From the NCBI GenBank assembly GCA_000004985.1, contig GG738910.1: DNA of 64,000 nucleotides; one strand, written 5' to 3'. The translations under genes were made by a program, and so were the position numbers. Positions 11,592 through 64,000 of the stretch are shown piece after piece (within the stretch, counting starts at the first letter, position 1; each line of letters opens with the position of its first letter). This stretch comes from Naegleria gruberi (Eukaryota). The notes below the pieces were generated by a model, which was given only the letters and a program-made list of their open reading frames with translations, had not been told where the DNA came from and searched no databases.

Positions 11592-11705
11592 AAACAATCC
11601 TTTGAACTATTCGAAAAATTATATTGCAAAAAGTTTGAAAAACAAAATCTTTATTCCAAGGATACCAACTTTAGGGCTACTGGTGTAAGAAAACAAACAA
11701 GTATT

Positions 11706-16938: not shown

Positions 16939-17853
16939 TCATTGAAAAATTGAAATTTCTTTGGATTTGTTATTAATAACATAGAGTAAACCAGTTCTCT
17001 TATCAACAAACAATCCAAAATTTCTTGAAAAGGCATTAGAATCTTCAAATGTTTTTACAATTGAGAAATCAAACAATCTAATGACAAAAATTCGATGATT
17101 TTCAGTATCCGATAAGTAAACTAATCCAGATTCCTTCTCATAAAATATTGAATAGGCAGTTGAACACTTGGGAATGACCACTCTTCTTTTAGAGATCCAA
17201 TTATTTTCTTGCTTTTTGAAAATTTCCAAAGATTGTTGATTGGATGTTAATATTTCACTTTCAGATAAAAATTCAATTCCATATCCATTAACTAAACTAA
17301 TCCCATCTTCACCTTCATCCTTTCCTGTTTCCTTATTTGCTTTACAAACTACTGATCTATTGTAATCAAGAAAAAACACTTGATTTCCCATCAAATCCAA
17401 CCCCCAAATATTCGTGTTTGATTTTTTACATTCCCACACAATTCCTTCCTTTCCTTCCATCAAATCCTTCACTCTAATTTTAATAATTCCTCCACTTGTA
17501 CTTGCATAAATAAATTCCTCTGAATTCTCATTCACCAATCGCAAACAATGAAACACAAATTCCTTATACTTGACAGCAAATAAAAGGGAATTTTCAGAGG
17601 TGACAACTTTTGATTTATCGAAAATCATTAATGATGATCCACCAACTACAATAATTACGTCGAAACAATTAGAAATTGCAATATCAAAGCTCGGCTCGAA
17701 ATTAGCAACATTCAACGTTCGTACAAGTTTAAAATTTAAAGAAAATTGGAGGAATTTGGAAGCGAGTGATTGCTTTAAATATTTAAATAATTGATCAATG
17801 TTGTTGTCTTCCGAGGAGGATTTTAGATCAATTAGTGAAATGATTGTTGACAT
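16939..17853 (-). CDS. small cytosolic protein with NHL-repeat-like motifs (LVYLSDTENHRIFVI, LLYVINNKSKEISIF)
   Basis: 304-aa ORF with an AAAATG start; weak NHL/beta-propeller-like repeats. Confidence 0.4.
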   Translation of the reverse strand: MSTIISLIDLKSSSEDNNIDQLFKYLKQSLASKFLQFSLNFKLVRTLNVANFEPSFDIAISNCFDVIIVVGGSSLMIFDKSKVVTSENSLLFAVKYKEFVFHCLRLVNENSEEFIYASTSGGIIKIRVKDLMEGKEGIVWECKKSNTNIWGLDLMGNQVFFLDYNRSVVCKANKETGKDEGEDGISLVNGYGIEFLSESEILTSNQQSLEIFKKQENNWISKRRVVIPKCSTAYSIFYEKESGLVYLSDTENHRIFVIRLFDFSIVKTFEDSNAFSRNFGLFVDKRTGLLYVINNKSKEISIFQ

Positions 17854-37884: not shown

Positions 37885-40320
37885 ATGAGTCAACAACAAT
37901 TCGTTGGGAATGGAAGCCCGCCAAATATTTCAACTACTTCTATGAATGCTGCTGCTACTAATACTACTACTGGTAATGTTGTGGTTGGTACCTCAACAAC
38001 ACCATCAACAAACACTGGGAATGTGGGAGGGATATCGAATGGTGCTGGAACAGCTTCCCTTAAAACCTCACCGAATGATCTGTTGCTGAATTTACGTAAA
38101 TACACGAACAAATTGTTGGAGATTAATGGAACAAATCAAGTGGTTTCTGTTCCTTCGAACGTTGGTGTTGGAAAAGAGGTTGCACAGCCTCTTGCTTCTC
38201 TCTCCACTCCGACACTGAACCTTAATCAAAATATTGAGGAGAATAGAAATAATCAACAAATTGAAGAGGAAAGAGTGGAACCACAACAAGTATTCAAAAT
38301 TCCTCAACAGCAAACAAGTAGACCAGCAAGTCCAAAAAGGAGTGAAAGTTTGGTGATAATGGATGACCAAATTTCGGATATTGAAAGTGTTACTGATAAT
38401 GACCAGAGTAATACTAGCAAAACAGTTGTAAATTATAGAGATTTAGAAGTGAAAAAGTGTTATGATATTATTTTCAAGCTAAGAAATAGGCTTGCTAAGG
38501 AAAAGGAAAAGAATGATCAACAGGAAAGAAGAAAGGAAGATTCCACAAAGATGCTAGGAAAGTTAATTGATCATTATAAATCGGAAAACTCTAGATTGAT
38601 TCAACAATTAGATTTACTGAGAAGAGATTCTGATGCACAAATTGAGGAACAGTTACATCAGATGAATGATTTGAGGATTTCAAACTTTACTCTATCAGAA
38701 GAAATTAACATTCTAAGAAATTCAGTGAACATTGAGAAACAAAAAGGAGATCAAGATATTGAGAGACACATTAGAGAAAAGTCAAAAACACAATCAGAGT
38801 TAATTGAATGTAAAAGGGAAAATTCCAAACTTAGAGAAACAATAATGGTGCTGGAAGAAAATATTAAAAAGGCAGAACTCAACGCAGCAGAATCTGTGAA
38901 AAATTTTGAGGAAATTGAAATACCATCATTGAAAAGAAAGTGTGGGTATTACGAAAAGACAATCTCTGATTTGGAAAAGAAACTAGATGAGATTCGGAAA
39001 GATCAAGAACGGTCTGTGAATCAACATGTGGAGAGATTTAAATCAAAAGAAGCAGTCATGGGAGAAACCATCAAGCGATTGGAAGAAGATTTGAAAAAGC
39101 AACGAGAATCAATGAAGCAAAACTCCAATTCAAGTTCAGAGGAGAAGAAGCAACTTGAAATTCAATTGAAAGAACAAGTTAATTTGAATGATGAAACAAG
39201 ATTAGAATTGGCTAATTTAAAGTCTTCTCTAGAGGATATAGAAGTTAACATGTTGAATCACCTCATTCAAGAACATGAAGAATTAATTATTGAAGTTTCT
39301 CAAATGGATGCTTTTATGACTGAGGTATTTTCAGTAAAATCAAGAAAGGAAATTAAGAGATTGGTGACTGAAAATTTGGAACTCAAGAATCAATTGAGTT
39401 TGATGAATGAACAATACGAGATTAACAAAAAGCAACTCCAACACGCAACTCTTGAATTGGATGAACTAAAATCTTCCTTCAATAAGGGTGATCAAGTGTT
39501 GAGTCAATTAGAGAACCAAAGAAAGACTCAATCTGAGAGACATAGAATAGAATTGGAAGAATTGAGAACAGAAATGAGAAATTTTACAATTTCACAAAAA
39601 GCAGAAAAAGAGAACTTGTTAGATTTGTTGGACAATACCAAAACTCAACTGGATACTTGCCAACATAAAATGGAGCAAATGCAACTGGAAAGAAGTGATG
39701 GCCAAAAAGAGGTTCAATACCTCAGAAAAAGAAACTCTGAGCTTGAAACTCAACTTCTCAACGCAGAATCAGATAGACAAAGATTGGTTTCAGAAGTTTC
39801 CAATCTTAATTGTACATTAGATCAATTGAGAGATGAAGTCGATGCCAAGAACGATGAAAATAGAAAGATTGTAGAGCAATCAAGATCTTCCATGCAATCT
39901 ATTCAAGTCAAACTCAACAGAGACCAACAAATCTATCAGAAGAGTGAATATGATTGGAATCAAAAAGTGAAACATCTGAATGATATGGTACTTCAAGCGG
40001 AGTACAATCTTTCGGAATATAAAAAGAAGTACAAGGAAGAAATTAGCAGCTTTAATAATGATTTAATTATGAGGCAACAACAAATTGAAAGTTTACAAAC
40101 CGATGTCCAAAGAATGAAACAGGAAGGCATGTCTATTACAGCTCAAAACAAGAAAGACTTGGATGTGAGAGAACAGGAAATTCAAAAGATCAAGAGAGAA
40201 AAACAACAATTAGAGCATTCAATTGTTCAAAAAGAAAGAGAGAAAGACTCATTCAAACTGAGATTGGAAATGATGGAAAGAGAATTATCAAGACTGAAAT
40301 CTCAATATAATGTAAAGTAA
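37885..40320 (+). CDS. long coiled-coil protein (E/K/Q/L heptad-rich, S/T/N-rich head)
   Basis: 811 aa. About 650 aa of uninterrupted heptad-like charged sequence. Confidence 0.55.
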   Translation: MSQQQFVGNGSPPNISTTSMNAAATNTTTGNVVVGTSTTPSTNTGNVGGISNGAGTASLKTSPNDLLLNLRKYTNKLLEINGTNQVVSVPSNVGVGKEVAQPLASLSTPTLNLNQNIEENRNNQQIEEERVEPQQVFKIPQQQTSRPASPKRSESLVIMDDQISDIESVTDNDQSNTSKTVVNYRDLEVKKCYDIIFKLRNRLAKEKEKNDQQERRKEDSTKMLGKLIDHYKSENSRLIQQLDLLRRDSDAQIEEQLHQMNDLRISNFTLSEEINILRNSVNIEKQKGDQDIERHIREKSKTQSELIECKRENSKLRETIMVLEENIKKAELNAAESVKNFEEIEIPSLKRKCGYYEKTISDLEKKLDEIRKDQERSVNQHVERFKSKEAVMGETIKRLEEDLKKQRESMKQNSNSSSEEKKQLEIQLKEQVNLNDETRLELANLKSSLEDIEVNMLNHLIQEHEELIIEVSQMDAFMTEVFSVKSRKEIKRLVTENLELKNQLSLMNEQYEINKKQLQHATLELDELKSSFNKGDQVLSQLENQRKTQSERHRIELEELRTEMRNFTISQKAEKENLLDLLDNTKTQLDTCQHKMEQMQLERSDGQKEVQYLRKRNSELETQLLNAESDRQRLVSEVSNLNCTLDQLRDEVDAKNDENRKIVEQSRSSMQSIQVKLNRDQQIYQKSEYDWNQKVKHLNDMVLQAEYNLSEYKKKYKEEISSFNNDLIMRQQQIESLQTDVQRMKQEGMSITAQNKKDLDVREQEIQKIKREKQQLEHSIVQKEREKDSFKLRLEMMERELSRLKSQYNVK

Positions 40321-40381: not shown

Positions 40382-43117
40382 TTATTGACCCAACAATTTG
40401 GTTCTCAAGACGTATGGCAAGATACCACCATGCTTGAAGTATTCAAGTTCTGGTTCAGTATCGAATCTCAAAATTGTGGTGAATTCCTTGACATTTTCGT
40501 TACCAGTAACAGAGACAGTAACTTCTTGGAATGGCTTCATACCAGCAGACAAATCAATGCTGAATTGTTCCTTACCAGTCAAACCCAAAGAGTCAGCACT
40601 TTGGCCTTCCTTGAATTGCAATGGAATGATACCCATACCAGCCAAGTTAGATCTGTGGATTCTTTCGAAAGAGGTAGCAATAACAGCCTTAACTCCCAAA
40701 AGATATGGACCCTTAGCAGCCCAATCTCTTGATGAACCTGAACCATATTGTTCACCACCAATAACGATCAATTCGTTACCAGCTTCACGATACTTGACGG
40801 AAGCATCGAAAACTGAAACAGCTTCACCAGATGGAACGTGGAGAGAAATTGGACCTGGTTTACCGATCATCTTATTGTAAAGTCTAACGTTAGCAAAAGT
40901 ACCTCTGACCATGACTTCATCGTTACCACGACGAGCACCATAAGTGTTAAAGTCCTTTCTTTCAACACCTCTTTCCAAGAGATATTGAGCAGCAGATGAC
41001 TTCAATGAGATACTACCAGCTGGAGAAATGTGGTCAGTAGTAGTGAAATCACCCAAATTCAACAAACAGTAAGCATCCTTAATTGGCTTGCTTTCATTGG
41101 TTTGAGATTCAACAGCCTTGAAGAATGGTGGATCGTGAATATAAGTTGACTTTTCATCCCATGGATACAACATGCTTTCTGGAGCATCCAACTTATTCCA
41201 GTTATCAGTACCCAAAGCAATCTTTTCATAGACAGACTTGAACATTTCTGGAAGAACATTGTTAGTGACACATTCTTGAACTTCTTCGTGAGTTGGCCAA
41301 ATGTCTCTCAAGAAAACTGGTTGATTAGTGGTTGGATTGACACCCAATGGTTGAGTTTCAAAATCAATCTTAACATTACCAGCAAGAGCATAAGCAACAA
41401 CCAAAGGTGGAGAAGCCAAATAGTTAGCTTGGACAATTGGGTGAACACGAGCTTCAAAGTTTCTGTTACCAGACAAAACTGAAGCAGAAACCAAGTTGGA
41501 ATTAACAATAGTTTCATGAACAACTTCTGGCAATTCACCAGAGTTACCAATACAAGTCATACAACCATAACCAACAACGTTGAAACCCAACTTGTCAAGA
41601 TATCCTTGCAAACCAGACTTAGTCATATATTCAGAAACGACACCTGAACCTGGTGAGAGAGATGTCTTAATGTATGGATTAACAGTCAATCCTTGTTCTA
41701 CAGCCTTCTTGGCAAGCAAAGCAGCAGCAAGCATGACAGAAGGATTTGAGGTATTTGTACAACTGGTAATAGCAGAAATAACAACTGAACCATGAGTTAA
41801 ATTGTACTTCTTTCCTTGATATTCAATTTCAACAGTCTTTTCAGAATCTTCAGCTGGAATTTCGAATCCCTTGAAACCTCTCTTGGCAGTCAAACCTTCC
41901 TTGAATTCCTTATGGACATCAGTCAAAGAGACACGATCGTGTGGTCTCTTTGGACCAGCCAAAGATGGAACAACAGTAGTCAAATCAAGTTCCAATTTAG
42001 CACTATAACGAATGTTAGCAGCATCTGAATCAGATGTGACGAATAACTTTTGAGCCTTCAAATATTCAGCAACCAAAGCAACCTTCTTTTCATCTCTGTT
42101 AGATTGTTTCAAGAAAGTAAGAGTAGTGTTATCAATTGGGAAGAAACCCATAGTAGCACCATATTCTGGAGCCATGTTTGAAATAGTGGCACGATCAGCA
42201 ACAGACAAGTTATTGACACCTTCACCATAGAATTCAACAAACTTTCCGACAACACCCAACTTTCTCAAGTTTTGAGTAAGAGTCAAAACCAAATCAGTAG
42301 CAGTAGCAGCACCAGTCAATTTACCAGTTAATTTGTAACCAACAACTTCTGGCAAAACCATGGCACTTGGTTGACCAAGCATGGCAGCTTCAGCTTCAAT
42401 ACCACCAACACCCCAACCTAAAACACCCAAACCATTGATCATAGTAGTGTGTGAATCAGTACCAACCAATGAATCTGGATATAACAAAGCTTGTAAATTA
42501 TTTTCCTTATCAGTTGATGAAAGTTCTTCATTATTTTCAAAAACAACTCTAGCCAAATATTCCAAGTTAACTTGATGGACAATACCACTTCCTGGTGGAA
42601 CAATTTGCAAATTCTTGAAGGCCTTGCTACCCCACTTTAAGAACTTGAATCTTTCATAGTTTCTATTGAATTCCTTTTCTTGATTTTGTTGTAAAGCATC
42701 CTTTGAACCAAAGTCATCAACTTGAACACTGTGATCGATAACCAAATCAACAGGAACAAGTGGATTAACATTAGCTGGATTACCACCGAGTCTCTTGACA
42801 GCATCACGAATAGCAGCCAAATCGACAACAGCAGGAACACCAGTAAAGTCTTGCATCAAAACTCTAGCTGGTTTGAATGGAATTTCAATAGACTTCTTGC
42901 TTGATTCTTCCCAGTTAAGGATCTTTTCAACATCTTCCTTCAAGACAGCAAATTCATCACAATTTCTTACACAATTTTCCAACAAGACACGAATACAGAA
43001 AGGGAGAGTATCGAGTCTATCGTCCTTCAATTCAGGTAAGCTAAAGTATTTATACTTGCCACCGTTAACTTCGAGAGAACGAGCAACGCTTTCAAATGGA
43101 TTTGGTTGTGCTGGCAT
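40382..43117 (-). CDS. cytoplasmic aconitate hydratase / iron regulatory protein 1-like (ACO1 family)
   Basis: 911 aa. The N-terminus [32 protein letters not shown] and the spacing of downstream conserved aconitase blocks match ACO1/IRP1. Confidence 0.93.
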
Positions 43118-49304: not shown

Positions 49305-52300
49305 ATGAGAGCTTCATCTTCGGGTGACGATTCATCCTCCACTTCGAATCTTGTTGCTCATCATTATCAGCAAAATTCCAATCATCATCATCAGCGGCCC
49401 AGTTTAATTGATCATATTTTGATGAATAATAATCAGACAAATAATAATAATTATTATCAGCAAGATAGGGAATTGGAAGAAGTTTCAACAAGTGTTGTGC
49501 AACATTATAATAATAATGGTGATTTAAATTTTCCAATTTCTTCTTCTACATCGTCGTCTTCATCCACCAATACAACAAATAATAGTCCTAATCATACTCC
49601 TTCTCCATCAACAACAAATCAACAACATATAATTAGTAATAATAGTATAATTAATTGTGAAGAAGATGAAGAATACTTTAATCGAACAACAACAAATAAT
49701 AATCAAAGTAGTAATACGAGTCATAATAATATCATACCAACTAATATTCATACAACATCATCCTCAGCCCATCTGGTGGGCGAAATTAATGTACATAACA
49801 ATAATAATAATTTAACGTCTCCTGCTGATGATCAATCAACTGATGAAGGAATCTTCCAAAAAACCAAGAGAAAGGGAGAGAACATTTTGGAAACTATTCT
49901 TAGATACTTTTGCTGTGTTTCTCACTTTTCGAGGAATAATACACAACTACTCGAATCACACAATGTTTCGAGTAGTGATTATGGAGCACATAGTTCTGCT
50001 TTCATTAAAGTATTGAAAAAGAATGATCATATTAATATAGTGAACGAGTCGAATGTTTCATCGAGGAGGAGAAGTCGTTTATCACAAGAGGCTGTCAAGA
50101 AGATTAAAAAGAAAAAGAGAATTAGACTGATGAGTGATATTGATGAGGATAGTGATAACGAGGATCAAATTATTGAGAGTGAATATTCATTTTGGATATG
50201 GTTGAAATGTTTCTTTGGAAATTTGACATTCATGTGTCATCCTCCAAAGTGTTGCACCATTTTGAATATTTTAATTATTTTGTTTATTGTTCAAGGAATT
50301 TTTGGAATTATTTCTTCCTTTATTTTACTTTATTCGAGTGGTGAGAGTGTTTTGAAACAAACAGAATCGATCCAACAAATTCAAATCAAAACCTATTCCA
50401 AGAATGAAATTTTAAAGATTGTGGACTATACAAATCTTGCGGTAGAGACAATCAAGTTTGAGATGGCCGAATCTGATTTTAATATTAACAACCAATTACA
50501 TTGGACTAAACTTTTTAATTATGTGGCTAGTATTTATGGGAATAGTATACCAATAGATGGCATATTTTATGGTAAATCGGATAATTTCTATGTAGGATAT
50601 AATAGAAACGTTCAACACACGATAAGAAATGGTACAGCTGGTAAATCCCAATGTCAATACTTTTATCGTGCTCATCTCGACACTATCATAACTGATGATT
50701 CTTACTATTATGAAAACTTTGACTATGTTGCTTGTAATTTGTCAGTTTCGAACACAAAGAGACCTTGGTACTTGCCATATACAAAAGAATCTGATGCATC
50801 AAATTCTATCAAGTGGGCCCCTGTATTCAAATCAATTTATGGAGACCAAAGTATTGCTGTGACAATACCAATCTATGTTAATCAGACAATTTCACAAGCA
50901 CTCAATCAGACAACGCTCAGATACATTCCTGTTGATACTGCTCCTTCATCAATTAAGGTTCCATCTCGCCTATATGGTGTTGTTGGATTTCAATTACAAT
51001 CTAGAGCTTTAGGTGAGCTATTGAAAAATAGCTCTGGTTCATTTGGAGAGGTTGATATGGTATTTATTACGAATCCAGATGGTGATTTAATAGCAGTCAA
51101 TGCTCAATCTGGTTCAGATTACTTTCTGTTTGCCAAATATATCATACAGGATTATAGTGAAAGAGGAGTGTTGCACACTCTCAATACCACTACTTGCCAG
51201 ATAACCAATGGAGTATTATGTTCTCTTTCTTTGGAAAAGAAATCATATTCTTTTGAAGGTGAGGCATATTCTGTTGAGCTTTTATTTGCTACAGATTTGT
51301 ATAGTCTTGGATGGGGAGTGGCAATAGCTTCGAAAGTGAAATCATTTGCAGATGAAGTAGTGACAGGCGGTGTCACTTCTGTAGTTGTATTCGTTATTGT
51401 TTTTATATTTGGTATGATTATACTCTTCTTTACCCTCAAAGCAATTAGTAATCCAATACAACAATTGTCAATAGACATGCTCAAATTGACCAACTTGAAA
51501 GATAACAAGTCAAAGGAACAGACTTTAAGTATTTTCAGTGATATCAGAGAAATGCAAATTCACATCAAGGCAATGAAAAAAGGTCTAATTACATTTTCCA
51601 AGTATGTACCTGAGATTGTTGTAGAAAAGGTAATGATCAAACAAGACTATTCCTATGGAGAGGCTGGATTAACAACACAGAACATGTCAGTATTATGTTG
51701 TGAGCTCAATCCATCCGAAATATTTAGGGAAATGAAACCTTCCGACCTGTTAGACTTGCTCAATGATTACTTTGTGCTTGTTTGCAATGCAACTCACAAT
51801 CATGGAGGATTAGTTGACAAGTTTAACACTAATGCATTGGTTTGTTATTTTAACGAGTCAACATTCCCTGTCTTGAATCATGAACAAAATGCTTGCAGTG
51901 CTGCTTTGGAAATTGTCAATCAGATAAGCGAATTAATTGAAAAGCACTCAAAGAAAACCTCCTCCAAAATATCCATCAAGGTTTCAGTCAATAGTGGAGA
52001 CATTATTTGTGGGCTATTAGGATCTAATACTAGAATGAATTTCTCCATGATTGGAAAAAATTATGACATGGCAATTAACATGCTACAAATGAATAACCAT
52101 TACAAAACCAAGGTACTTATTGGTCAAAACACCTTACGTAAGGTGAGGGAGAACTTTATTTGCTACTTTGTAGACAGTTTGGAGACTGAAAAGATTTCAA
52201 TGCCATGTTCAACATTTAAATGTACATCAAGTGGGGATTTATCAAAATATGATGAAGAGGATAATAATGGCATTTGTAATGTTTATGAATTGATTTGTCA

Positions 52301-52490
52301 TAAGGACGAAGCGACAGAACTCCACAAAAAGATTCAATCTGATTTATACCAAATCGAGTCTTTCTTAGCGAACCAACAGTATCACTATCTGTACGACAAG
52401 TGCCTCTGCGTACTATCCTTAGAAGATCTTCAGAGTGTTGAATATTTAAAATCCAAATATAAAGCCGAATTGAATCGACAGATCCTTTAA
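49305..52490 (+). CDS. receptor-like protein: low-complexity cytosolic N-terminus, TM, extracellular Cache-like sensor domain, TM, HAMP-like linker, class III nucleotidyl cyclase homology domain with degenerate metal-binding residues
   Basis: 1061 aa. TM1 CTILNILIILFIVQGIFGIISSFILLY and TM2 VTSVVVFVIVFIFGMIILFF. Cyclase homology block ISIKVSVNSGDIICGLLGSNTRMNFSMIGKNYDMAINMLQ. The FxDIxGFT and TIGD positions read CCELNPSE and FNTNA. Confidence 0.6.
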   Translation: MRASSSGDDSSSTSNLVAHHYQQNSNHHHQRPSLIDHILMNNNQTNNNNYYQQDRELEEVSTSVVQHYNNNGDLNFPISSSTSSSSSTNTTNNSPNHTPSPSTTNQQHIISNNSIINCEEDEEYFNRTTTNNNQSSNTSHNNIIPTNIHTTSSSAHLVGEINVHNNNNNLTSPADDQSTDEGIFQKTKRKGENILETILRYFCCVSHFSRNNTQLLESHNVSSSDYGAHSSAFIKVLKKNDHINIVNESNVSSRRRSRLSQEAVKKIKKKKRIRLMSDIDEDSDNEDQIIESEYSFWIWLKCFFGNLTFMCHPPKCCTILNILIILFIVQGIFGIISSFILLYSSGESVLKQTESIQQIQIKTYSKNEILKIVDYTNLAVETIKFEMAESDFNINNQLHWTKLFNYVASIYGNSIPIDGIFYGKSDNFYVGYNRNVQHTIRNGTAGKSQCQYFYRAHLDTIITDDSYYYENFDYVACNLSVSNTKRPWYLPYTKESDASNSIKWAPVFKSIYGDQSIAVTIPIYVNQTISQALNQTTLRYIPVDTAPSSIKVPSRLYGVVGFQLQSRALGELLKNSSGSFGEVDMVFITNPDGDLIAVNAQSGSDYFLFAKYIIQDYSERGVLHTLNTTTCQITNGVLCSLSLEKKSYSFEGEAYSVELLFATDLYSLGWGVAIASKVKSFADEVVTGGVTSVVVFVIVFIFGMIILFFTLKAISNPIQQLSIDMLKLTNLKDNKSKEQTLSIFSDIREMQIHIKAMKKGLITFSKYVPEIVVEKVMIKQDYSYGEAGLTTQNMSVLCCELNPSEIFREMKPSDLLDLLNDYFVLVCNATHNHGGLVDKFNTNALVCYFNESTFPVLNHEQNACSAALEIVNQISELIEKHSKKTSSKISIKVSVNSGDIICGLLGSNTRMNFSMIGKNYDMAINMLQMNNHYKTKVLIGQNTLRKVRENFICYFVDSLETEKISMPCSTFKCTSSGDLSKYDEEDNNGICNVYELICHKDEATELHKKIQSDLYQIESFLANQQYHYLYDKCLCVLSLEDLQSVEYLKSKYKAELNRQIL

Positions 52491-53987: not shown

Positions 53988-55649
53988 ATGGCGAGACTTT
54001 CATGTATTAAAGGTTTATTTAAAATATATATTGCTGTCTTTGCTATTGTTTTATTAATTCTAGTGATTATCAACATTCAACGACATGAATCTGTTTTCAA
54101 GAAATCATCAACCTTTGAATCTATTCGAAACAAAATTTCGAATATAAATTCGGATGTATTAACAGATGAAAAAACAAACGAACAACAAAAAGATCAAGTA
54201 CAAACAATAACTAAACCATCATCAAATTTAAATACAAATATTGCTAATCAACAATTGCAAAACAAACAATCAGAAACTACAACACCTCTGATTTGTCTAA
54301 ATTCCGACTCGAATAGATTGAAAACTAAACAAGAAGAATTATGTGATTCGGAATATGGATGTGGAATGCTTCGTCAATGGAAACAAAATCAATTATTAAT
54401 GTGTGAACGAAAGGAATCCCATCAAAAAACACAATTGACTTGTTATGAACATAATAATTATCACTTGCCAACTGCCACCTTTCCACACACAATTTGTGAT
54501 TCTGAAAATCTAGTCATGGATTTCTCAAAATTAGTAAGAGCACCATGTTTGAAATATAGACCTGGATATTTTTGTAAAAAGGAAACTTATTACAATTACA
54601 AATCTGGAGCATTGATTGGAAATTGTCATAGAACGAATGAATTTTCAAATTTGAATCATTTTGCAAATGATTTTGGAAAGGATATCTTTTCCAGTTTTAT
54701 AACATTTGAAGAAAAACAAGTTGATTTGCAAAATGTGAAATTTTTTGATGGAATTACTATTTTCGTATCGAGAGAACAAGATGAACATGTCAATATGTTT
54801 CATGCAATGAGTGATTTCTTTGCCACACATGTTGTCATTGAAATGTTTAAACTGAACAGTTCAAATATTCAAATAGTCATTTTGGATGAGCATTTTGATG
54901 GACCTTTTGATTTCTTGTGGGATAAGGCACTTTCCTTCAAGAGACCAATGAAAAAGGCCTCTTCCTTTTCAAATGGAATGGTAAGATTTGAGAGGGCAAT
55001 CTTTCAACATGCTGGCTATGCTACACATTTCCTCTCAAATTTGATGAATTTTAATGAGAATGATGCTACTATGTGTCACTCAAAAATTCCACTCGTTGCC
55101 AATTTTGCCAATAGAATTTTGAATGGTTTGGGTATCAAGAAGAGAGAAATCAATAAGGGTGATGTGATTCGTGTCTTGTTCATCAGTCGAAGACCTTATG
55201 TGAAATTTGGAGTCGAGCACAATTTCATGTCTCGTCAAATTAGCAATGAAGAAGAGGTGTTGGATCGAATGAAGACTCACAGAGAATATGGCAAGAAATT
55301 CACAGTGGAAAGAGTTGATTTTGCACATTTGAAATTAGTTGAACAAATTCAAAAAGTTCACGATTCAGATTTCTTAATTGGATATCATGGAGCTGGATTG
55401 ACTCACTCATTGTGGATGCCTGAGGAAACCTCTGCAGTTCTTGAAATTTGGAATACAGTAACAACAAGAGGATGGAGATGCTTTGAACAATTCACATTTT
55501 GGAAGGGAAACGACTATACATTGTGGAGTAATTCAAATCCAAAGAATTTGAGAAAGGACAGTTTGGGAGATTACTTGACTGTGGATGTTGCGGACTTTTA
55601 CAAAACATTTGATAGAATGGTTAACAAGTTGATTGACTCTAGGAATTAG
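53988..55649 (+). CDS. GT61/DUF563 family glycosyltransferase (EGF-domain O-GlcNAc transferase-like), type II membrane
   Basis: 553 aa. N-terminal signal-anchor IYIAVFAIVLLILVII. C-terminal FLIGYHGAGLTHSLWMP matches the GT61/EOGT HGAGL motif. Confidence 0.7.
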   Translation: MARLSCIKGLFKIYIAVFAIVLLILVIINIQRHESVFKKSSTFESIRNKISNINSDVLTDEKTNEQQKDQVQTITKPSSNLNTNIANQQLQNKQSETTTPLICLNSDSNRLKTKQEELCDSEYGCGMLRQWKQNQLLMCERKESHQKTQLTCYEHNNYHLPTATFPHTICDSENLVMDFSKLVRAPCLKYRPGYFCKKETYYNYKSGALIGNCHRTNEFSNLNHFANDFGKDIFSSFITFEEKQVDLQNVKFFDGITIFVSREQDEHVNMFHAMSDFFATHVVIEMFKLNSSNIQIVILDEHFDGPFDFLWDKALSFKRPMKKASSFSNGMVRFERAIFQHAGYATHFLSNLMNFNENDATMCHSKIPLVANFANRILNGLGIKKREINKGDVIRVLFISRRPYVKFGVEHNFMSRQISNEEEVLDRMKTHREYGKKFTVERVDFAHLKLVEQIQKVHDSDFLIGYHGAGLTHSLWMPEETSAVLEIWNTVTTRGWRCFEQFTFWKGNDYTLWSNSNPKNLRKDSLGDYLTVDVADFYKTFDRMVNKLIDSRN

Positions 55650-58204: not shown

Positions 58205-60319
58205 TTAAACACTTGAGGAGGTTGAAGGAGAACTCACTTTCAATTGATCTTGTAATTTGGCTTGTAACTTTTTCCTGTTTTCAGCATTCTTTCTTTTGGA
58301 TCTTAGTAACAGGACTGTTGTAAAGATTACAATAATCAAAATAATTAAAAGAATGACCACCACACCAACAACACCCACAGTGATACCAATTGTTACTGCT
58401 GACTGATCAGAAGAGGTATATGTTGAGGTTTGTACCTTATTTTCACTCAGTGTCTTCTTAACAGACATGTCAATGACTCCAAATGAAGTAAGGTGACTCG
58501 TTTCACATTTGACTGATATTACAACTTGGAAATTGGTGTTATCTATTGTCTTGTTCAAGAAGGAGAGAATAGTAGTTTTCAACCCTGAAGATTCCCAAGT
58601 GTTTTTCAAAGTATTGTAATAGGCACAGGAATAATTCAAGTGCTCAGATTTACCAATTGAAACATTGAAGAAAGCTAATGAAATTGGATCTTGTAAACCC
58701 TTGATTGCAATTTCTTGAGCCGATTGTCTGTCATAGAGTGAAATGGACATAACTGTACTCTTCAATTTGTCACTATTCGAAAATAAAACTGGAGCAGAAT
58801 TAGTGCTTGGATCGTAAATGGACGAAACTAACACAATCTCGCTTACATTATTAATTTGATCACTCATTGTCGCTGGAAATTCAAAACTAGTCTTGAAACC
58901 GTCAAAGGAAACTGATTTGGAATCAAGTTCTGTAACATCCTTCACAACTGTCAACTTTTCAACATAACCGTTTACCAAAGAAGTGTTCAAACATGTAGAA
59001 TTTGCAGCCACAATCTTTCCATAACAATACTTGTATTCACAATATTGTCCAAAGTAATTTTCTTGGCATTCAACAACAGGTTCTTCCTCATTCATCCAAT
59101 AATCTCCAATGTCAGTTTCTCTCCAGTCTGGTATTGTGAGATTAAGTGGTTTTGTGACGCATAATGTACCATTAGAATTAATGGAATAATTTGTTGAATT
59201 ACACGAATATTCCATCATTAGAATTCTTTGATTATTGGTATCGGTTACTGTTATGGCCATAGAGGAAACTCCTGGTTTAGACAGAATGTTGATAGACACA
59301 CTTTCAGGACCTGACATGATTGTAGTTCCAGATACGGTTTGAATAATACCAGTACGCAAATCAATTCTTCTCAATCTGTGATTCCAACTGTCGGCAATGT
59401 ACAAATCATTTTGTAATCCCAAGAATAAATCTCGAGGACTGTTAATCATGGCAGAAGTTGCTGCCGAACCGTCACCTGCAATACCTCCATTTCCTGTTCC
59501 ACATATGGTTGAGATTATTCCAGTGGCAGCTGTTATTTTTCTGATTCTGTTGTTTTGAGTATCAGCAATATAAATGTCACCATTAGACATGATAGCAACA
59601 GCTTGAGGACCATTCAACTTGGCAGATGTTGACAATACGTTATCTGTAAATCCTGATGAACCTGCTGTTCCAGCAATTGTTGTAATAATACCAGTAAATA
59701 TATCAAGTTTTCTGACAATATGGTTAAGAGTGTCTGAAATGTACAAATATTTCTGTGTTGTGGTATCGAATGTAACTCCTCTTGGACCATTAAGCATGGC
59801 TTGAGTAGCTATTTTACCATCGCCTGAAAACCCAGCTGTCAAGTTGCCAGCAACAATAACGAGCTGACCTGTCATTAAATTTAACTTTCGAATAATATTA
59901 TTACCACTCTCAGCAATGTATAACGCATTCTCTGTAGTACTCATGGTAATCTGTCTAGGTTCATTGAGTTTCGAATATCTTGCTTTGAACTTTCCACCAA
60001 CGAGTGGTGATTCAGCAAAACCTTTCTCACCAGTTCCACATAAAGTCAGTAAACTGCCATTCGAATGAATAAACTTCAATTGATGATTGCCAGTATCAGC
60101 AATCAACACTCTTGAATAATTAGAAACCCTTACTCCAGCTGGCCAAACTAGAGCATAGTTATTGCCAGCATCAGCAATAGTTTTATAACTTGTGGCCGTT
60201 GGCGTTAATTGACCATTGACATGTTGTTGATCTAGCTGTGTCAGTTGACTAAAGAGCAGAGTTGTTATGATCGTTATTATTAAATGTAGAATAGTCATAG
60301 ATGAAACTGTTTGCTGCAT
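58205..60319 (-). CDS. type I membrane NHL-repeat (6-bladed beta-propeller) protein with EGF-like module, GPS-like autoproteolysis motif (HLTSFGV), single TM and short cytoplasmic tail
   Basis: 704 aa. Signal peptide. Repeated YIADTQNNRIRKI / YIADSWNHRLRRI NHL motifs. CQENYFGQYCEYKYC. ...VKCETSHLTSFGV lies 89 aa before the C-terminus, followed by TM VTIGITVGVVGVVVILLIILIIVIF. Confidence 0.7.
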   Translation of the reverse strand: MQQTVSSMTILHLIITIITTLLFSQLTQLDQQHVNGQLTPTATSYKTIADAGNNYALVWPAGVRVSNYSRVLIADTGNHQLKFIHSNGSLLTLCGTGEKGFAESPLVGGKFKARYSKLNEPRQITMSTTENALYIAESGNNIIRKLNLMTGQLVIVAGNLTAGFSGDGKIATQAMLNGPRGVTFDTTTQKYLYISDTLNHIVRKLDIFTGIITTIAGTAGSSGFTDNVLSTSAKLNGPQAVAIMSNGDIYIADTQNNRIRKITAATGIISTICGTGNGGIAGDGSAATSAMINSPRDLFLGLQNDLYIADSWNHRLRRIDLRTGIIQTVSGTTIMSGPESVSINILSKPGVSSMAITVTDTNNQRILMMEYSCNSTNYSINSNGTLCVTKPLNLTIPDWRETDIGDYWMNEEEPVVECQENYFGQYCEYKYCYGKIVAANSTCLNTSLVNGYVEKLTVVKDVTELDSKSVSFDGFKTSFEFPATMSDQINNVSEIVLVSSIYDPSTNSAPVLFSNSDKLKSTVMSISLYDRQSAQEIAIKGLQDPISLAFFNVSIGKSEHLNYSCAYYNTLKNTWESSGLKTTILSFLNKTIDNTNFQVVISVKCETSHLTSFGVIDMSVKKTLSENKVQTSTYTSSDQSAVTIGITVGVVGVVVILLIILIIVIFTTVLLLRSKRKNAENRKKLQAKLQDQLKVSSPSTSSSV

Positions 60320-61585
60320 GTTGTACAGATGTGTGTTGTTTCTTTTTAGTTTTTGGGAATAAATCTTGTGCTGATTTAACCACCATTGGATTTACCATTG
60401 TTTCGTAAAAGGAATACACAAGCAATAGATTTTTCTGTTATCCAATAGTTCAGGAACTCTGTTTCTTAATCGGATAACATTCGGTTAAAAGACCAAATCG
60501 ACAAGGACATGATGGGTACTAGAATAAAATTCTTTCATTGGCCAAGTGTGCCTCTAAAAAACCAAGTAGCCTTTCAAATGTATAACCTCACCTTGATTAA
60601 GATTTCGCACGCGGTGGACTCTAGACACAGCAGATGCTTGATGGAGGAGATTTGCCTTCTTATTTGTGTAATTGATTTTTGATGTTGAAATGACGAGATG
60701 GATATTAATACAGATCAAGCATTCCAATTTGGTCCTAAATAATGAATATTATTTGAATGAAGAAATTGATGGTTATGGAATGTTATTTGGCTAAAGGCTT
60801 TTTGATATCATCAGGGTTGTGTACCTGTCTGTATTGCTGAAATTATCCATCGATTGTAAATAAATACTGATGTTGGTGAGGAGAAGGAATTGTGGAGGTT
60901 GTAATACATCTTCTTATTGTTCTCCGAGGAAGAGTTTGATGTTATCAGAACATGAAGGAACAGTTGTTGGGAATTTTTAATTTTTTAATTAAAAAATACA
61001 ACAATTTCCTTCAGATCCTTGTTGTGTAGAGAAGAATGAAGATTTTAGTTGGTGATGAGGAATTTATTAAATAATAATTTTGTGATTTCTAATCTATGAA
61101 TCTGTGAGCATCAAGCTATGATGTAAATGTTGATTTTCTTGGTTACATCATAAGAGCGTGAAAAAGCGAATCGGAACAACATTATAGGATAATCCAATCA
61201 CGTGCATTGGTTGTTAAATGGTTAGAGTAGATATTAGGAAGAACAATTACAACTTGTATGCTAAAGGAACAATTTATCTTTTGCAACTTTGTTCAGGGCA
61301 TTTGTAGGCCTTTATGTGGACTGAAAAAAGACAATTGAGTCAGTTTACAAAACAATCTAAAGCATTAATGACCTGAAATCAAGTCATTAGGCGGAGTTTT
61401 TTTTGACATGTGTACCTTAATCTCCGAATTTTAAGGAAGGAAAGAGGAAGTACCACCAAATTGATCCACAATAGGGTTTGTAAAACAAACTTTTTAACAG
61501 TCTCATTCATTGTGTGGGTTTTTGAAACGATACTTTGACAATCTTTGAAAGGCCTACTTCAAGATGTTTGTGAAAAAAATTGAAA

Positions 61586-64000
61586 ATGCTGAACCGAGTC
61601 TTTCAAACTGGTGTCCTGTTGGTACTCACTCTTACTGTTTTAGTTTTGATTATTGACAATCAACTCTGTGTAAATGCAACATTTAAACCATTGTACAAGA
61701 TGAGTACTGTTGTGGGTGGTGGATTTGATGATGGTCAAGATGCTAAACAAGTTTGCCTTGCTCCAACCAAAGTCAAGTTTGATAGAAAGAGTGAGAATAT
61801 TTATATTTCAGGTGAGTTTTTATTCTAAACATGCTTCAAGATTATATGATTAGATAGAATCAATAATAGAATCAGAAAGTTGGATGTGATGAGTGGAAAG
61901 ATCAGCACTATTGTTGGAAATGAATTTATTGGATTTTCAGGAGATGGTCAAGCAGCAACTCTTGCTCATATCAATAATCCAGGAAAGGTTGAGGTCTCTT
62001 CAAATAATGATATTTACTTTGCTGTAAGTTCTCTTTGTTCTGTTTCTAATACACTCATTTCAAAAAGGACACTAACAATCACAGAATTAGAAAGGTATTT
62101 GCCAATGGAACGATTTTAACCATTGCTGGTTGTGGAGAATTTGGTTTTGATCTGGAAGAGAAATCTCCAGTTCCTGCTCTAGAAGCCAAAATCAATTATC
62201 CTAAAGCAGTTCTTCTCTCTTCTGATGAAAAGATATTGTACATTACAGATACAGCTTCTCACATGATCAAAGCTCTTTCATTCGAAACTGGTTTAGTTTC
62301 CATTATTGCTGGCTCTTTATACCGTGATAGTTCTCAAAACTCAACGATTGTTCAAGGACCAATCAGTTTGGCTTTGAGCCCTCTGACTAGTGAGGTTTAT
62401 TTTGTAGATGATGATGGTATTAAAAAGATTACTAATGAAGGAAAGATCGAAATGATAACAAGAAATTCTAAATTTGGTGGAGATGGAGGTCTAGCAATCA
62501 ATGCTGGAGTTTCAGCTGTTGATATTGAGTTTTTGGGCACTAGTAATACATTGTTAATTGCTGATTACGGCAATAATCGAATTAGAATTATTGGTACCAA
62601 TGGCTTTATTGAAACCTATGCTGGTAATGGTAATGTGACTTCAAGTATTGATGGCGAAAGAGCTTTAGATTCTCCACTGACGGCTTTTGGAGTTTCCACA
62701 TCTAATGAGGGTGAAGTTTATTTTGCTGATTATGCCAGAGTTTCAGTTGTCACCATTAATGGCTTAATCAAACACGTGGCTGGTAATGGGAAATTGCAAT
62801 ATTTGGGAGATGGTAATTTAGCAACCCAAAGTCAATTATTCAAGCCAAGAGGTGTTGCTGTTTCCACAAGTGGAGAGCTATTTATCAGCGATTCTGCTCA
62901 AGATACTATTCGAAAAGTTTCTACTGAAGGTGTAATTAATACCATTGCCGGTGGAACTTTTCCATTGGGAGGTTATATTCAAGATGGTGTTGACCCATTG
63001 AATACATTCCTTAATAATCCAAGCGCTCTAGAATTTTCATCAAGTTCAGGAGAATTGTTTCTTTCAGATTCTCACAATTTTAGAGTGAGAAAGATTTCAA
63101 AGGAAAATATCATTTCTACAATCGCTAACCATACCTCAATCACCAGACCACACGGCATTGCTCTTTATAATGACTTGGTTTATGTGGCTGATTCTCAATC
63201 CAATAGAGTGATACGAGTTGATAAGAATGATGGCTCTGTAACTCTGATAGCAGGAAATGGAACTGCTGGTTATTCAGGAGATGGAAGTTTGGCTACTCAA
63301 GCTCAATTATTCAATGTTTCTGGAGTTACTGTTCTTCCTAATGGTGAAGTTTTGATTGCAGACACCAACAATCATAGAATTCGTAAGGTCAACTTGGAGG
63401 GTATTATTCAAACAATTGCTGGTACAGGAATTCCCGGATTTAATGGTGATAATATCCTCGCCACTAGTGCTCAATTGAATTCTCCAACTGACATCGAAGT
63501 TTCTCCAGTTTCAGGTGAAATTATTATTGTTGATTCGAATAATCATCGTATCAGAAAGATTGATTCCTTTGGTAATATTTCTACAATTGCAGGAACAGGT
63601 ATTGCATCATTGAGCTCACATGGTAAACTTTCCATCTATGGAAGTCTTAACACTCCAACTACGCTTTCAATTTCTGCTTTCAGTGGTCATGTCTACATTG
63701 CAGATTACGAAAATAGAAGAATTAGAAAATTGGAACAATTTACTATTGAAAAATACAATCTTCCAGTTCAAGATGATGGTGAATTGAGAACCGAAACTAT
63801 CCAAGATTCTACAAATCTTAAAACAATTAATTATGATAATATTCAAATTGAACCTCCAAAGGAAAGTTTAAAGAATTCAGAGCTGAGTCTTGCCACTTCA
63901 GTTTACCAAGTCGACAGAAATGGAAAATTAACATCTTTTGAAAAGTCTATTAAGAGTGGAATTGTCACTGTTGCAATTTTGGATTCTGATTGTAATGTTA
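61586..64000 (+). CDS. paralogous NHL-repeat secreted/membrane protein, 3'-truncated by window edge; exons 61586..61811, 61854..62023, 62068..>64000
   Basis: Signal peptide. Introns of 42 nt (GTGAGT...TTAG) and 44 nt (GTAAGT...AAAAAG) restore the NHL motifs (GD-RINNRIRKLD and DTNNHRIRKVFANGTILTIAGCG). At least 10 further NHL repeats follow (IADTNNHRIRKV, IVDSNNHRIRKI). Confidence 0.7.

What the first reader, a model, noticed from the sequence alone, without database searches (positions are those of the whole stretch)
58205..64000. Head-to-head paralogous NHL-repeat membrane proteins; the complete one ends in a GPS autoproteolysis motif plus single TM
Two genes diverge from a 1.27-kb shared upstream region (60320-61585). 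Both have a signal peptide and multi-blade NHL beta-propellers with the ADTNNHRIRK consensus. The complete minus-strand copy adds an EGF-like module and then ...VKCETSHLTSFGV. That is the HL|T GPS/GAIN cleavage signature, encoded at 58475-58495, and it lies immediately before one TM helix and a short basic tail. NHL-propeller plus GPS plus single TM is a combination I do not recognise from described receptor families; GPS motifs normally precede 7TM or polycystin-type bundles. A third, smaller NHL-like gene lies at 16939-17853.
Basis: partly seen in the sequence, partly recalled or inferred. Interest (0 to 1): 0.6.

Follow-up and report, generated by a model that had tools for sequence, protein, structure and literature searches.

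The report
Naegleria single-pass NHL receptors with GAIN-B
Two neighbouring genes of the amoeba Naegleria gruberi encode surface proteins that join a beta-propeller head to a stripped-down version of the self-cleaving GAIN domain of animal adhesion receptors, anchored by one membrane helix instead of seven. This is a real but lineage-restricted variant of a known module, and no paper in the searched library describes it.

Summary
The window is Naegleria gruberi NEG-M. The minus-strand ORF 58205-60319 is XP_002670972.1 (UniProt D2VYE8, "predicted protein").

It encodes:
- a signal peptide;
- a six-bladed NHL propeller;
- a degenerate Cys-rich/EGF remnant;
- a GAIN subdomain-B domain, with H609-L610|T611 in the turn before the last strand;
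- one TM helix and a 32-residue basic tail.

Pfam GPS is sub-threshold for this protein alone (17.6 bits against a cut-off of 22.5). Other evidence supports the domain call:
- Paralogs pass the Pfam cut-off.
- The family profile hits solved adhesion-GPCR GAIN domains (E 6e-9).

The domain lacks helical subdomain A. It keeps only the C1-C3 disulfide; C2 and C4 were lost together.

The plus-strand neighbour has 12 NHL blades and no EGF. Beyond the window it also carries GAIN-B, a TM helix and a short tail, but with K-L-S instead of H-L-T.

The family appears restricted to Naegleria: only 27 representatives among 1.84 billion proteins. One member carries a cytoplasmic kinase. UniProt already auto-labels some N. 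lovaniensis members "GAIN-B domain-containing". Cleavage is inferred, not shown.

Verdict: new variant of a known kind, of moderate interest.

The parts
58205..60319 (-). Complete intronless CDS of the 704-aa NHL/GAIN-B/1TM protein (N. gruberi XP_002670972.1, NAEGRDRAFT_53244, UniProt D2VYE8)
   Evidence: ORF listed. Its translation is identical to P0121.
60242..60319 (-). Predicted signal peptide (aa 1 to about 26)
   Evidence: Hydrophobic segment at aa 4-26. Inferred only; no signal-peptide predictor was available.
59207..60187 (-). Six-bladed NHL beta-propeller (aa 45-371)
   Evidence: Pfam NHL 1.3e-20 and TEN_NHL 2.3e-20. PDB sequence hits to a teneurin-like protein, SOQ1 and NHLRC2. The full-length model shows 24 strands at high pLDDT.
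58979..59206 (-). Cys-rich linker with a degenerate EGF remnant (aa 372-447; CQENYFGQYCEYKYC)
   Evidence: No Pfam EGF hit. pLDDT about 30 in the full-length model but 81-92 with the deeper alignment. Paralogs have genuine EGF repeats here.
58469..58966 (-). GAIN subdomain-B domain (aa 452-617); no helical subdomain A
58472..58630 (-). GPS motif (aa 564-616), containing C565, W575, G579 and C605
   Evidence: Pfam PF01825 covers profile positions 2-45 of 45, at 17.6 bits on the whole protein and 20.5 bits on the fragment. Conservation is shown.
58487..58495 (-). Putative autoproteolytic triad H609-L610|T611; the predicted scissile bond is L610-T611
   Evidence: The triad lies in the turn between the last two strands of the model. 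It aligns with H-L-T of ADGRL3 and ADGRG6. H is kept in 28/31 family members, L in 30/31 and T/S in 30/31.
58304..58399 (-). Single transmembrane helix (aa 641-672)
   Evidence: Kyte-Doolittle peak of 3.67 over aa 638-676. Helix in the full-length model.
58208..58303 (-). Short basic cytoplasmic tail (aa 673-704, RSKRKNAENRKKLQAKLQDQLKVSSPSTSSSV)
   Evidence: Read directly from the translation.
60320..61585 (.). 1266-bp divergent intergenic spacer between the two start codons
   Evidence: Coordinates. No repeats, tRNA genes or Rfam hits.
61586..64000 (+). Partial CDS of the paralog. Exons are 61586-61811, 61854-62023 and 62068->64000. It encodes a signal peptide and about 12 NHL blades, and it runs off the window.
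   Evidence: Splice sites read. Gene model gives 776 aa in the window. Pfam NHL 1.1e-43.
63847..64000 (+). Start of the paralog's GAIN-B domain (aa 726-776). The remainder (GPS with K-L-S, TM helix, tail KRKQNLSKI) lies beyond the window.
   Evidence: Completed with P0156, taken from a near-identical ENA contig. Family HMM E 2.7e-16 over aa 726-845.

Best explanation
Both genes encode members of a Naegleria-restricted family of type-I, single-pass, heavily N-glycosylated surface proteins.

The architecture has three parts:
- An extracellular head of one or two six-bladed NHL beta-propellers, which is the presumed ligand-, prey- or substrate-binding part.
- A juxtamembrane domain that is a minimal GAIN domain: subdomain B only, one disulfide, and a GPS motif.
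- One TM helix and a very short basic tail.

The architecture and the homology to GAIN are shown here. The following steps are inferred.

1. In the 704-aa protein the intact H609-L610|T611 triad sits in the tight turn before the last beta-strand. I infer that the domain cleaves itself in the secretory pathway by the N-to-O acyl-shift mechanism established for GAIN domains.
2. Cleavage would give a roughly 585-residue N-terminal fragment. It would stay non-covalently bound to a 94-residue C-terminal fragment through the embedded strand TSFGVID.
3. No 7TM bundle follows the domain, so the most likely consequence is a force-breakable or ligand-breakable link. Tension on the propeller would pull the N-terminal fragment off, giving shedding and de-adhesion during amoeboid crawling or feeding. 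A membrane stub would remain. It could be degraded, processed within the membrane, or signal through partners.
4. In the kinase-bearing paralog D2VPM5 the same event could regulate the cytoplasmic kinase.
5. The plus-strand neighbour carries K-L-S, so it may be a slow-cleaving or non-cleaving variant.
For: Identity and architecture.

Homology to GAIN:
- Pfam GPS matches 23 of 26 family members, with a best E of 4.6e-8. Paralogs score above the gathering threshold.
- The family profile hits ADGRL3 at 5.9e-9, ADGRG6 at 8.1e-9, ADGRG1 at 1e-7 and ADGRG3 at 5.6e-7. The alignments cover about 120-145 residues of subdomain B.
- The AF2 model has pLDDT 85.5 and pTM 0.81.
- Foldseek top hits are CELSR1, BAI3, CL1, ADGRL3 and ADGRG6 GAIN domains.

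For catalytic competence:
- H, L and T/S are among the least variable columns in 31 non-redundant members: H 28/31, L 30/31, T/S 30/31.
- These are the residues whose mutation abolishes CL1 cleavage (PMC3321182).
- The triad lies in the turn between the last two strands, as in GAIN domains.
- The retained Cys pair corresponds to the native C801-C832 disulfide of CL1, next to the cleavage turn.
- GAIN domains with a much reduced subdomain A still self-cleave (PMC13197933).

For a surface adhesion or receptor role:
- There is a signal peptide, 13 N-glycosylation sequons and a single TM helix.
- The family shows expansion and domain shuffling (NHL number, EGF number, kinase) typical of surface receptors.
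Against: - No experiment shows cleavage.
- In latrophilin-1, deleting subdomain A abolished cleavage. The two disulfides are described there as holding the scissile turn in place (PMC3321182). This family has no subdomain A and only one of the two disulfides.
- Several animal GAIN domains with apparently intact motifs are not cleaved.
- This protein alone falls below the Pfam GPS threshold.
- Nothing here addresses the ligand, localisation or expression.
- The shedding and de-adhesion role is an analogy with aGPCRs, polycystin-1 and SEA-domain mucins.
- The C-terminal part of the plus-strand paralog comes from a metagenome contig of a near-identical strain (2 differences in about 579 aa), not from the reference genome.
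Confidence: 0.6

Rival explanations
1. The domain is a genuine GAIN-B homolog but does not cleave itself. It would serve only as a rigid, glycosylated juxtamembrane stalk that holds the propeller away from the membrane. The H-L-T residues would be conserved for folding of the last hairpin.
For: - Helical subdomain A is absent and the C2-C4 disulfide is lost. Both were described as important for cleavage in CL1.
- BAI3 crystallised uncleaved.
- Family members tolerate K-L-S (the plus-strand paralog) and S-L-E (P0138). This shows the fold survives without the triad.
Against: - H, L and T/S are kept in 28-30 of 31 diverged members that share only about 25-35% identity overall. A purely structural role would rarely demand exactly the catalytic base and nucleophile.
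- T838 can be replaced by Gly in CL1 without loss of folding, so folding alone does not explain retention of T/S.
- GAIN domains with short subdomain A do cleave.
Confidence: 0.3
2. After cleavage, the exposed TSF(A/G)VID strand acts as a tethered ligand for a separate membrane protein (a 7TM receptor, a cyclase or a channel). Alternatively, loss of the N-terminal fragment licenses intramembrane proteolysis of the stub. On this view the protein is a signalling receptor rather than a breakable adhesin.
For: - The strand T-S-F-A/G-V-I-D closely resembles the aGPCR tethered-agonist core TxFAVLM.
- The Drosophila Cirl 1TM isoform works together with the 7TM isoform.
- Bacterial SEAL-domain autoproteolysis primes regulated intramembrane proteolysis (abstract listed).
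- One paralog couples the module to a protein kinase.
Against: - No partner has been identified.
- The strand's conservation is explained equally well by its structural role as the last beta-strand of the fold.
- Tails are only 1-32 residues long in most members.
- The +7 position is Asp rather than the hydrophobic Met used by aGPCR agonists.
Confidence: 0.08
3. The HLT motif is a chance resemblance, or the domain belongs to another autoproteolytic fold (ZU5/FIIND, Nup98-type or SEA) rather than GAIN.
For: - The Pfam GPS score for this protein alone is below threshold.
Against: - The sequence profile hits only GAIN domains, plus EGF proteins through the EGF columns.
- The Cys, Trp and Gly positions of the GPS motif align.
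- One family member (P0143) keeps the full canonical four-Cys pattern GC...CGCTHLT.
Confidence: 0.02

Closest known systems
GAIN domain of adhesion GPCRs (latrophilin/ADGRL, BAI/ADGRB, CELSR, ADGRG1/3/6, CD97/ADGRE5)
   Same: - The beta-sandwich subdomain B has the GPS motif as its C-terminal strands.
- The H-L|T triad lies in the turn before the last strand.
- The C1-C3 disulfide, the conserved Trp and Gly, and a TxFAV-type last strand are present.
- The domain sits 20-40 residues from the membrane.
   Different: - There is no helical subdomain A at all. The known minimum in aGPCRs is 2-3 helices.
- The C2-C4 disulfide is lost and the first Trp is replaced by Tyr/Phe.
- One TM helix follows instead of a class-B2 7TM bundle, so the tethered-agonist mechanism has no in-cis receiver.
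- The host organism is a discoban amoeboflagellate, not a holozoan.
Polycystin-1 / PKD1-like / sea-urchin REJ proteins
   Same: These are non-GPCR membrane proteins that use a GAIN/GPS domain next to the membrane and are cleaved there. The review lists polycystin-1 and suREJ3 cleavage at the GPS. From memory only: suREJ1 has a single TM helix.
   Different: The window protein shows no REJ module, PLAT/LH2 domain, 11-TM bundle or channel partner (Pfam). Its head is an NHL propeller.
Drosophila Cirl 1TM (and GPR126 1TM) splice isoforms
   Same: An extracellular region with a GAIN domain is anchored by a single TM helix.
   Different: Those are splice variants of 7TM genes and act together with the 7TM isoform. 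The Naegleria proteins are dedicated single-pass genes, and no 7TM relative was found among the 27 representatives.
'Ancient' GAIN domains of Dictyostelium and Tetrahymena (Arac et al. 2012)
   Same: These are GAIN/GPS modules in unicellular non-holozoan eukaryotes, identified by sequence and secondary-structure pattern.
   Different: They come from different supergroups (Amoebozoa and Alveolata, against Discoba here). They were reported to match the full GAIN secondary-structure pattern, including the helical part. NHL heads were not reported for them.
Teneurins
   Same: The Pfam sub-families matched are TEN_NHL and EGF_TEN/EGF_Teneurin. The shared feature is an NHL propeller combined with EGF repeats on a single-pass protein.
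   Different: Teneurins are type-II proteins with a YD shell and toxin-like C-terminus and have no GAIN domain. The Naegleria proteins are type I and lack these features. The closest NHL relatives by sequence are bacterial.
SEA-domain mucins (MUC1) and bacterial SEAL domains
   Same: They follow the same functional logic: a juxtamembrane self-cleaving domain in a single-pass protein yields two non-covalently associated fragments (SEAL; SEA: from memory).
   Different: The fold and the cleavage motif are unrelated.

Membership tests
GAIN domain (Pfam GPS PF01825 / PROSITE GAIN-B) | Significant match to the GPS/GAIN-B sequence profile | tested here: met
   The window protein alone scores 17.6 bits (whole) or 20.5 bits (fragment), below the cut-off of 22.5. 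The match covers the full profile. In addition, 23/26 family members match, and paralogs score 23.2-29.5 bits. The family profile hits solved GAIN domains at E 6e-9. UniProt labels N. lovaniensis paralogs GAIN-B.
GAIN domain | Subdomain B twisted beta-sandwich with the GPS as its last strands | tested here: met
GAIN domain | Catalytic H-L|T/S/C at the kinked turn between the last two strands | tested here: met
   H609-L610-T611 lies between strands 204-214 and 219-224 of the fragment model. It aligns to the HLT of ADGRL3 and ADGRG6. It is conserved in the family. The plus-strand paralog has K-L-S instead.
GAIN domain | Two conserved disulfides (C1-C3 and C2-C4) | tested here: not met
   Only C565 and C605 are present. 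They align with C1 and C3. C2 is replaced by a hydrophobic residue and C4 by Thr. The one retained pair is a native pair, so the pattern is compatible with the fold but reduced.
GAIN domain | N-terminal helical subdomain A (2-6 helices) | tested here: not met
   No helix of 5 or more residues lies between the propeller and the beta-sandwich in either model. Only about 80 Cys-rich residues intervene.
GAIN domain | Demonstrated cis-autoproteolysis | not testable with these tools
   This needs expression and immunoblotting, or mass spectrometry.
Adhesion GPCR (class B2) | 7TM domain directly C-terminal to the GAIN domain | tested here: not met
   There is one hydrophobic segment only (aa 641-672) and the protein ends 32 residues later. 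There is no Pfam 7tm_2 hit.
Polycystin-1 / PKD1-like | REJ module, PLAT domain and 11-TM bundle | tested here: not met
   No such Pfam hits. The protein has a single TM helix.
NHL-repeat beta-propeller | Five to six NHL repeats forming a propeller | tested here: met
   Pfam NHL 72.7 bits and TEN_NHL 73.3 bits. Six motifs were read in the sequence. The full-length model has 24 strands over aa 45-371. The plus-strand paralog scores 145.6 bits with about 12 repeats.
EGF-like domain (in the 704-aa protein) | Six-cysteine EGF signature or profile match | tested here: not met
   No EGF family at E<=1 on the whole protein or E<=0.1 on the fragment. Only the C-terminal half-signature CQENYFGQYC remains. 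Paralogs do meet the criterion.
Teneurin | Type-II topology, YD-repeat shell and Tox-GHH-like C-terminus | tested here: not met
   The topology is type I (N-terminal signal peptide, C-terminal TM helix). There are no YD or RHS Pfam hits.

The most novel reading that the evidence does not exclude
These Naegleria proteins would be free-standing, minimal GAIN-B 'mechanical fuses'. Self-cleavage would expose a conserved TSFAVID neo-N-terminus, which would signal in trans or cis to a separate membrane partner or would license intramembrane proteolysis. That would mean GAIN autoproteolysis and a tethered-ligand-like strand were already used for signalling in single-pass receptors of a discoban. In that case the mechanism would predate the holozoan GAIN-7TM fusion and might date back to the last eukaryotic common ancestor.
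Probability: 0.1. Interest if true: 0.8.

Novelty: new variant of a known kind. Interest (0 to 1): 0.5.

Why it matters
GAIN domains are the defining mechanosensitive, self-cleaving module of adhesion GPCRs and polycystin-1. Their origin and minimal functional unit are open questions.

This family offers four things:
- A naturally minimal version: subdomain B only, one disulfide and about 165 residues. It still conserves the catalytic triad and a tethered-agonist-like last strand.
- A context with no 7TM bundle. This separates what the domain does by itself from what it does as a GPCR activator.
- A third eukaryotic supergroup (Discoba) carrying the domain, which bears on whether the domain is ancestral to eukaryotes.
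- Candidate surface adhesins or receptors, including one receptor kinase, in a genus that contains the pathogen N. fowleri, which has family members of its own.

If cleavage were shown, the protein would be a compact model for GAIN chemistry and force-dependent dissociation.

Tried and rejected
- Word-indexed protein search with the C-terminal 274 aa found nothing, not even the query's own protein. An exhaustive phmmer search was needed instead.
- The full-length search was swamped by bacterial NHL proteins. These share only the propeller, and none matches the GAIN-B HMM.
- The look-up of encoding contigs for the reference protein P0121 returned no record. The N. gruberi scaffold beyond 64000 could therefore not be read. 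The plus-strand C-terminus had to be taken from a near-identical metagenome ORF.
- The AFDB Foldseek library was unavailable, so I made no structural census of similar architectures in other protists.
- Literature searches for Naegleria with GAIN, with GPS or with NHL found nothing relevant. The suREJ1 single-TM precedent could not be documented from the library.
- I considered and rejected a chance HLT motif, and ZU5/FIIND, Nup98-type or SEA folds.
- I considered and rejected the idea that the 304-aa ORF at 16939-17853 is a family member.
- I looked for anything functional in the shared intergenic spacer and found no repeats, tRNA genes or Rfam hits.
- A six-frame scan of the whole window with the GAIN-B HMM found no further copy.

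Full report
**Source and gene models**

The minus-strand ORF 58205-60319 (704 aa) is identical to Naegleria gruberi NEG-M XP_002670972.1. This protein is also EFC38228.1, NAEGRDRAFT_53244 and UniProt D2VYE8, and is annotated only as 'predicted protein'. The window's composition (about 34-35% GC), its short GT-AG introns and its neighbouring genes fit a Naegleria nuclear scaffold. Those neighbours include a phage-type RNA polymerase, a DENN protein, aconitase, a cyclase and a GT61 glycosyltransferase.

The plus-strand gene starts at ATG 61586. It has introns at 61812-61853 and 62024-62067, and its frame then stays open to the window end, giving 776 aa in the window. The two start codons are 1266 bp apart (60320-61585). 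That spacer contains no repeats, tRNA genes or Rfam matches.

- Both proteins begin with a hydrophobic signal-like segment.
- Both have strong NHL calls: Pfam NHL 1.3e-20 with TEN_NHL 2.3e-20 for the minus gene, and 1.1e-43 with 1.4e-41 for the plus gene.
- The minus protein has six NHL motifs. In a full-length AlphaFold model, aa 45-371 form 24 strands, which is one six-bladed propeller.
- The plus protein has about twelve motifs, which implies two propellers.
- HLTSFGV is encoded exactly at 58475-58495.
- One strong hydrophobic segment (aa 641-672) follows T611 after 30 residues. A 32-residue basic tail comes after it.

The two proteins are true but distant paralogs, with 26% identity over 677 aa and E 2.6e-37.

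**Is the GPS real?**

On its own the 704-aa protein is sub-threshold for Pfam GPS. It scores 17.6 bits (E 0.006) against a cut-off of 22.5, although the match covers profile positions 2-45 of 45. I therefore built the family.

An exhaustive phmmer search with aa 362-645 against 1.84 billion representative proteins found only 27 hits at E<=1e-3. Nearly all end in ...C-x-T-x-H-L-T-S-F-A-V-I-D-x-N-(F/Y)-K-K. A TM helix follows 20-41 residues later, then a tail of a few residues.

The evidence from the family is as follows:
- Pfam GPS matches 23 of 26 aligned members, with a best E of 4.6e-8.
- Full-length paralogs exceed the gathering score: P0123 23.2 bits, P0134 25.0 bits and N. fowleri P0135 29.5 bits.
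- A profile of the family alignment A1, searched against all PDB sequences, hits ADGRL3 (5.9e-9), ADGRG6 (8.1e-9), ADGRG1 (1e-7), ADGRG3 (5.6e-7) and ADGRF1.
- Those alignments span 120-145 residues. They therefore cover most of GAIN subdomain B, not just the 45-residue motif.

**Structure**

AlphaFold2 on aa 394-630 with alignment A1 gave pLDDT 85.5 and pTM 0.81. After a small Cys-rich hairpin, the model has eleven beta-strands and two very short helices. H609-L610-T611 lies in the turn between the last two strands. This is the position of the scissile bond in GAIN domains (PMC3321182).

- Foldseek against the PDB ranks CELSR1, BAI3, latrophilin-1, ADGRL3 and ADGRG6 GAIN domains first, with E from 4e-6 to 7e-4.
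- That ordering fits the proposed ZU5/GPS superfamily (PMC3482391).

**How it differs from canonical GAIN**

1. There is no helical subdomain A in either model. Only about 80 Cys-rich residues separate the propeller from the beta-sandwich.
2. Only two of the four GPS cysteines are present. In the HMM alignment to ADGRL3, C565 aligns with C1 and C605 with C3. The positions of C2 and C4 hold a hydrophobic residue and Thr. In latrophilin-1 the disulfides are C801-C832 (C1-C3) and C820-C834 (C2-C4). The family has therefore kept one native pair and lost both partners of the other. This is what a fold-compatible reduction looks like. One metagenomic member (P0143) still has the full GC...CGCTHLT pattern.
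3. The first GPS Trp is Tyr/Phe.
4. One TM helix follows, not seven or eleven.

**Conservation**

In 31 non-redundant members, the counts are:

| Position | Conserved in |
|---|---|
| C1 | 31/31 |
| C3 | 31/31 |
| Leu at -1 | 30/31 |
| Thr/Ser at +1 | 30/31 |
| Trp | 29/31 |
| Phe at +3 | 29/31 |
| His at -2 | 28/31 |

This holds although overall identity is only about 25-35%. H, L and T are the three residues whose mutation blocks latrophilin-1 cleavage without unfolding the protein. I take this as the main argument that the domain is catalytically active.

Two results argue the other way. Deleting subdomain A abolished cleavage in latrophilin-1, and both disulfides are described as holding the scissile turn. 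Against that, GAIN domains with only 2-3 helices (G1, G3, E5) do cleave (PMC13197933). I put self-cleavage at roughly 55-60%.

**The plus-strand paralog**

The best database match to the in-window part is P0156. It is an ORF from an ENA metagenome contig that differs at 2 of about 579 overlapping residues. It extends 134 residues past the window. The completed protein of about 910 aa has these features:
- It has no EGF module.
- It enters GAIN-B directly after the twelfth NHL blade. The GAIN-B HMM, which was built without this protein, gives E 2.7e-16 over aa 726-845.
- Its GPS region reads ...NYSCMSYNQESKEWKNDG...ISCKFSKLSSFAIME, so it has K-L-S where H-L-T would be.
- A TM helix and the tail KRKQNLSKI follow.

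Proteins 57-60% identical to it (P0158 and P0159, sources unnamed) keep CKTSHLTSFSVID. BAI3 has R-L-S at this site and crystallised uncleaved, so this copy may cleave poorly or not at all. The reference scaffold beyond 64000 could not be read.

**Family and distribution**

Every member that carries a source name is from Naegleria: N. gruberi, N. lovaniensis or N. fowleri. N. gruberi has at least nine such genes.

Architectures vary:
- One to many propellers.
- Zero to more than ten teneurin-type EGF repeats.
- Short forms with only EGF, GAIN-B and a TM helix (P0134, P0139).
- One 2807-aa protein (D2VPM5) with NHL, EGF, GAIN-B and a TM helix, followed by a cytoplasmic protein kinase (Pkinase 2e-33).
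- Related Naegleria NHL-EGF-TM proteins that lack GAIN-B altogether (P0164, P0179), or have a decayed copy without HLT (P0239).

GAIN-B therefore behaves as a shuffled, optional juxtamembrane module.

UniProt's automatic pipeline already names several N. lovaniensis members 'GAIN-B domain-containing protein'. I found no paper describing them.

**Mechanism proposed**

Shown here: these are type-I single-pass glycoproteins (13 N-glycosylation sequons) with an NHL propeller head and a minimal GAIN-B stalk.

Inferred:
- Cis-autoproteolysis occurs at L610|T611 in the secretory pathway.
- The fragments stay together through the embedded TSFGVID strand.
- Force or ligand then dissociates the N-terminal fragment. 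No 7TM bundle follows the domain, so the simplest outcome is shedding and de-adhesion rather than tethered-agonist signalling.

Alternatives are a non-cleaving stalk (about 0.3) and a trans-acting or proteolysis-priming signalling role (about 0.1). Precedents for the second are the Cirl 1TM isoform and bacterial SEAL domains.

**Comparison and novelty**

The domain passes the sequence, fold and catalytic-triad tests for GAIN-B. It fails the tests for subdomain A and the second disulfide. It is not an adhesion GPCR and not a polycystin.

GAIN domains in non-holozoan unicellular eukaryotes were reported for Dictyostelium and Tetrahymena. The GAIN-7TM fusion is considered a holozoan innovation. 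A dedicated family of single-pass NHL/GAIN-B proteins in a discoban is therefore a new variant of a known kind. It is already half-recognised by automatic annotation and lacks experimental support. I rate interest as moderate, at 0.5.

- The 'EGF-like module' in the 704-aa protein is only a remnant.
- The ORF at 16939-17853 has a single marginal NHL repeat, has none of the other features, and is not part of the family.

Noticed in passing
window 11901-12363 (within the stop-to-stop frame 11592-13070, + strand): A 117-bp tandem repeat of 4 copies (76% matches) encodes EGF modules of the type SACSGHGSCISPNNCSC..GYYGNDCSQFDCYG. This is the same teneurin-like EGF type found in the NHL/EGF/GAIN-B family. 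The same frame continues into a segment that looks like a methyltransferase (DMPFG motif), so the gene structure here is unclear.
   Followed up: partly
window 14984-16680 (+ strand, several frames): A likely secreted protein. It begins with a signal-like segment (MKEKMQKNQLIITLVVLLSVVACTVYG), followed by long runs of NGS-rich repeats (NGSLxIxG...). The coding sequence is split over frames, presumably by short introns. It is probably another repetitive, glycosylated surface protein.
   Followed up: no
P0145 (N. gruberi XP_002673894.1, UniProt D2VPM5; not in the window): A 2807-aa paralog combines many NHL blades, more than ten EGF repeats, a long middle region, GAIN-B with H-L-S, one TM helix and a cytoplasmic protein kinase domain. 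It is in effect a GAIN-containing receptor kinase.
   Followed up: partly
P0164, P0179, P0239 (N. fowleri, N. lovaniensis, N. gruberi; not in the window): Related Naegleria NHL-EGF-TM proteins either lack the GAIN-B module entirely or carry a decayed copy without HLT (P0239, HMM E 3.5e-5). The module therefore appears to be gained, lost or degraded within a broader receptor superfamily.
   Followed up: partly
window 58205-60319 and 61586-64000 (NHL regions): The closest sequence relatives of the NHL propellers are bacterial proteins from metagenomes (33-45% identity) and a 'teneurin-like protein' in the PDB, rather than eukaryotic NHL proteins. This hints at a bacterial origin for the propeller part.
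   Followed up: no
window 37885-40320 (+ strand): An 811-aa ORF is rich in Glu, Lys and Gln and looks like a coiled-coil protein, with no Pfam match. Its purine-rich coding strand explains the AT-skew (0.27) and GC-skew (0.18) spike at 38-40 kb.
   Followed up: partly
window 16939-17853 (- strand): A 304-aa ORF without a signal peptide or TM helix. It has one marginal NHL repeat (21.3 bits against a cut-off of 20). It is unrelated to the GAIN-B family apart from that motif.
   Followed up: yes
window 2541-5342, 6442-8907, 40382-43117, 49305-52490, 53988-55649: Ordinary housekeeping or signalling genes surround the locus: a phage-type (mitochondrial) RNA polymerase, a DENN-domain protein, aconitase, a protein with an adenylate/guanylate cyclase catalytic domain, and a GT61 glycosyltransferase. 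None has an evident functional link to the finding.
   Followed up: partly
L001 (ENA ERZ929261 contig k127_273566) and the contig carrying P0156: Metagenome assemblies contain N. gruberi-like contigs whose proteins differ from the reference by 2 residues each. A closely related strain is therefore present in those environmental samples.
   Followed up: no
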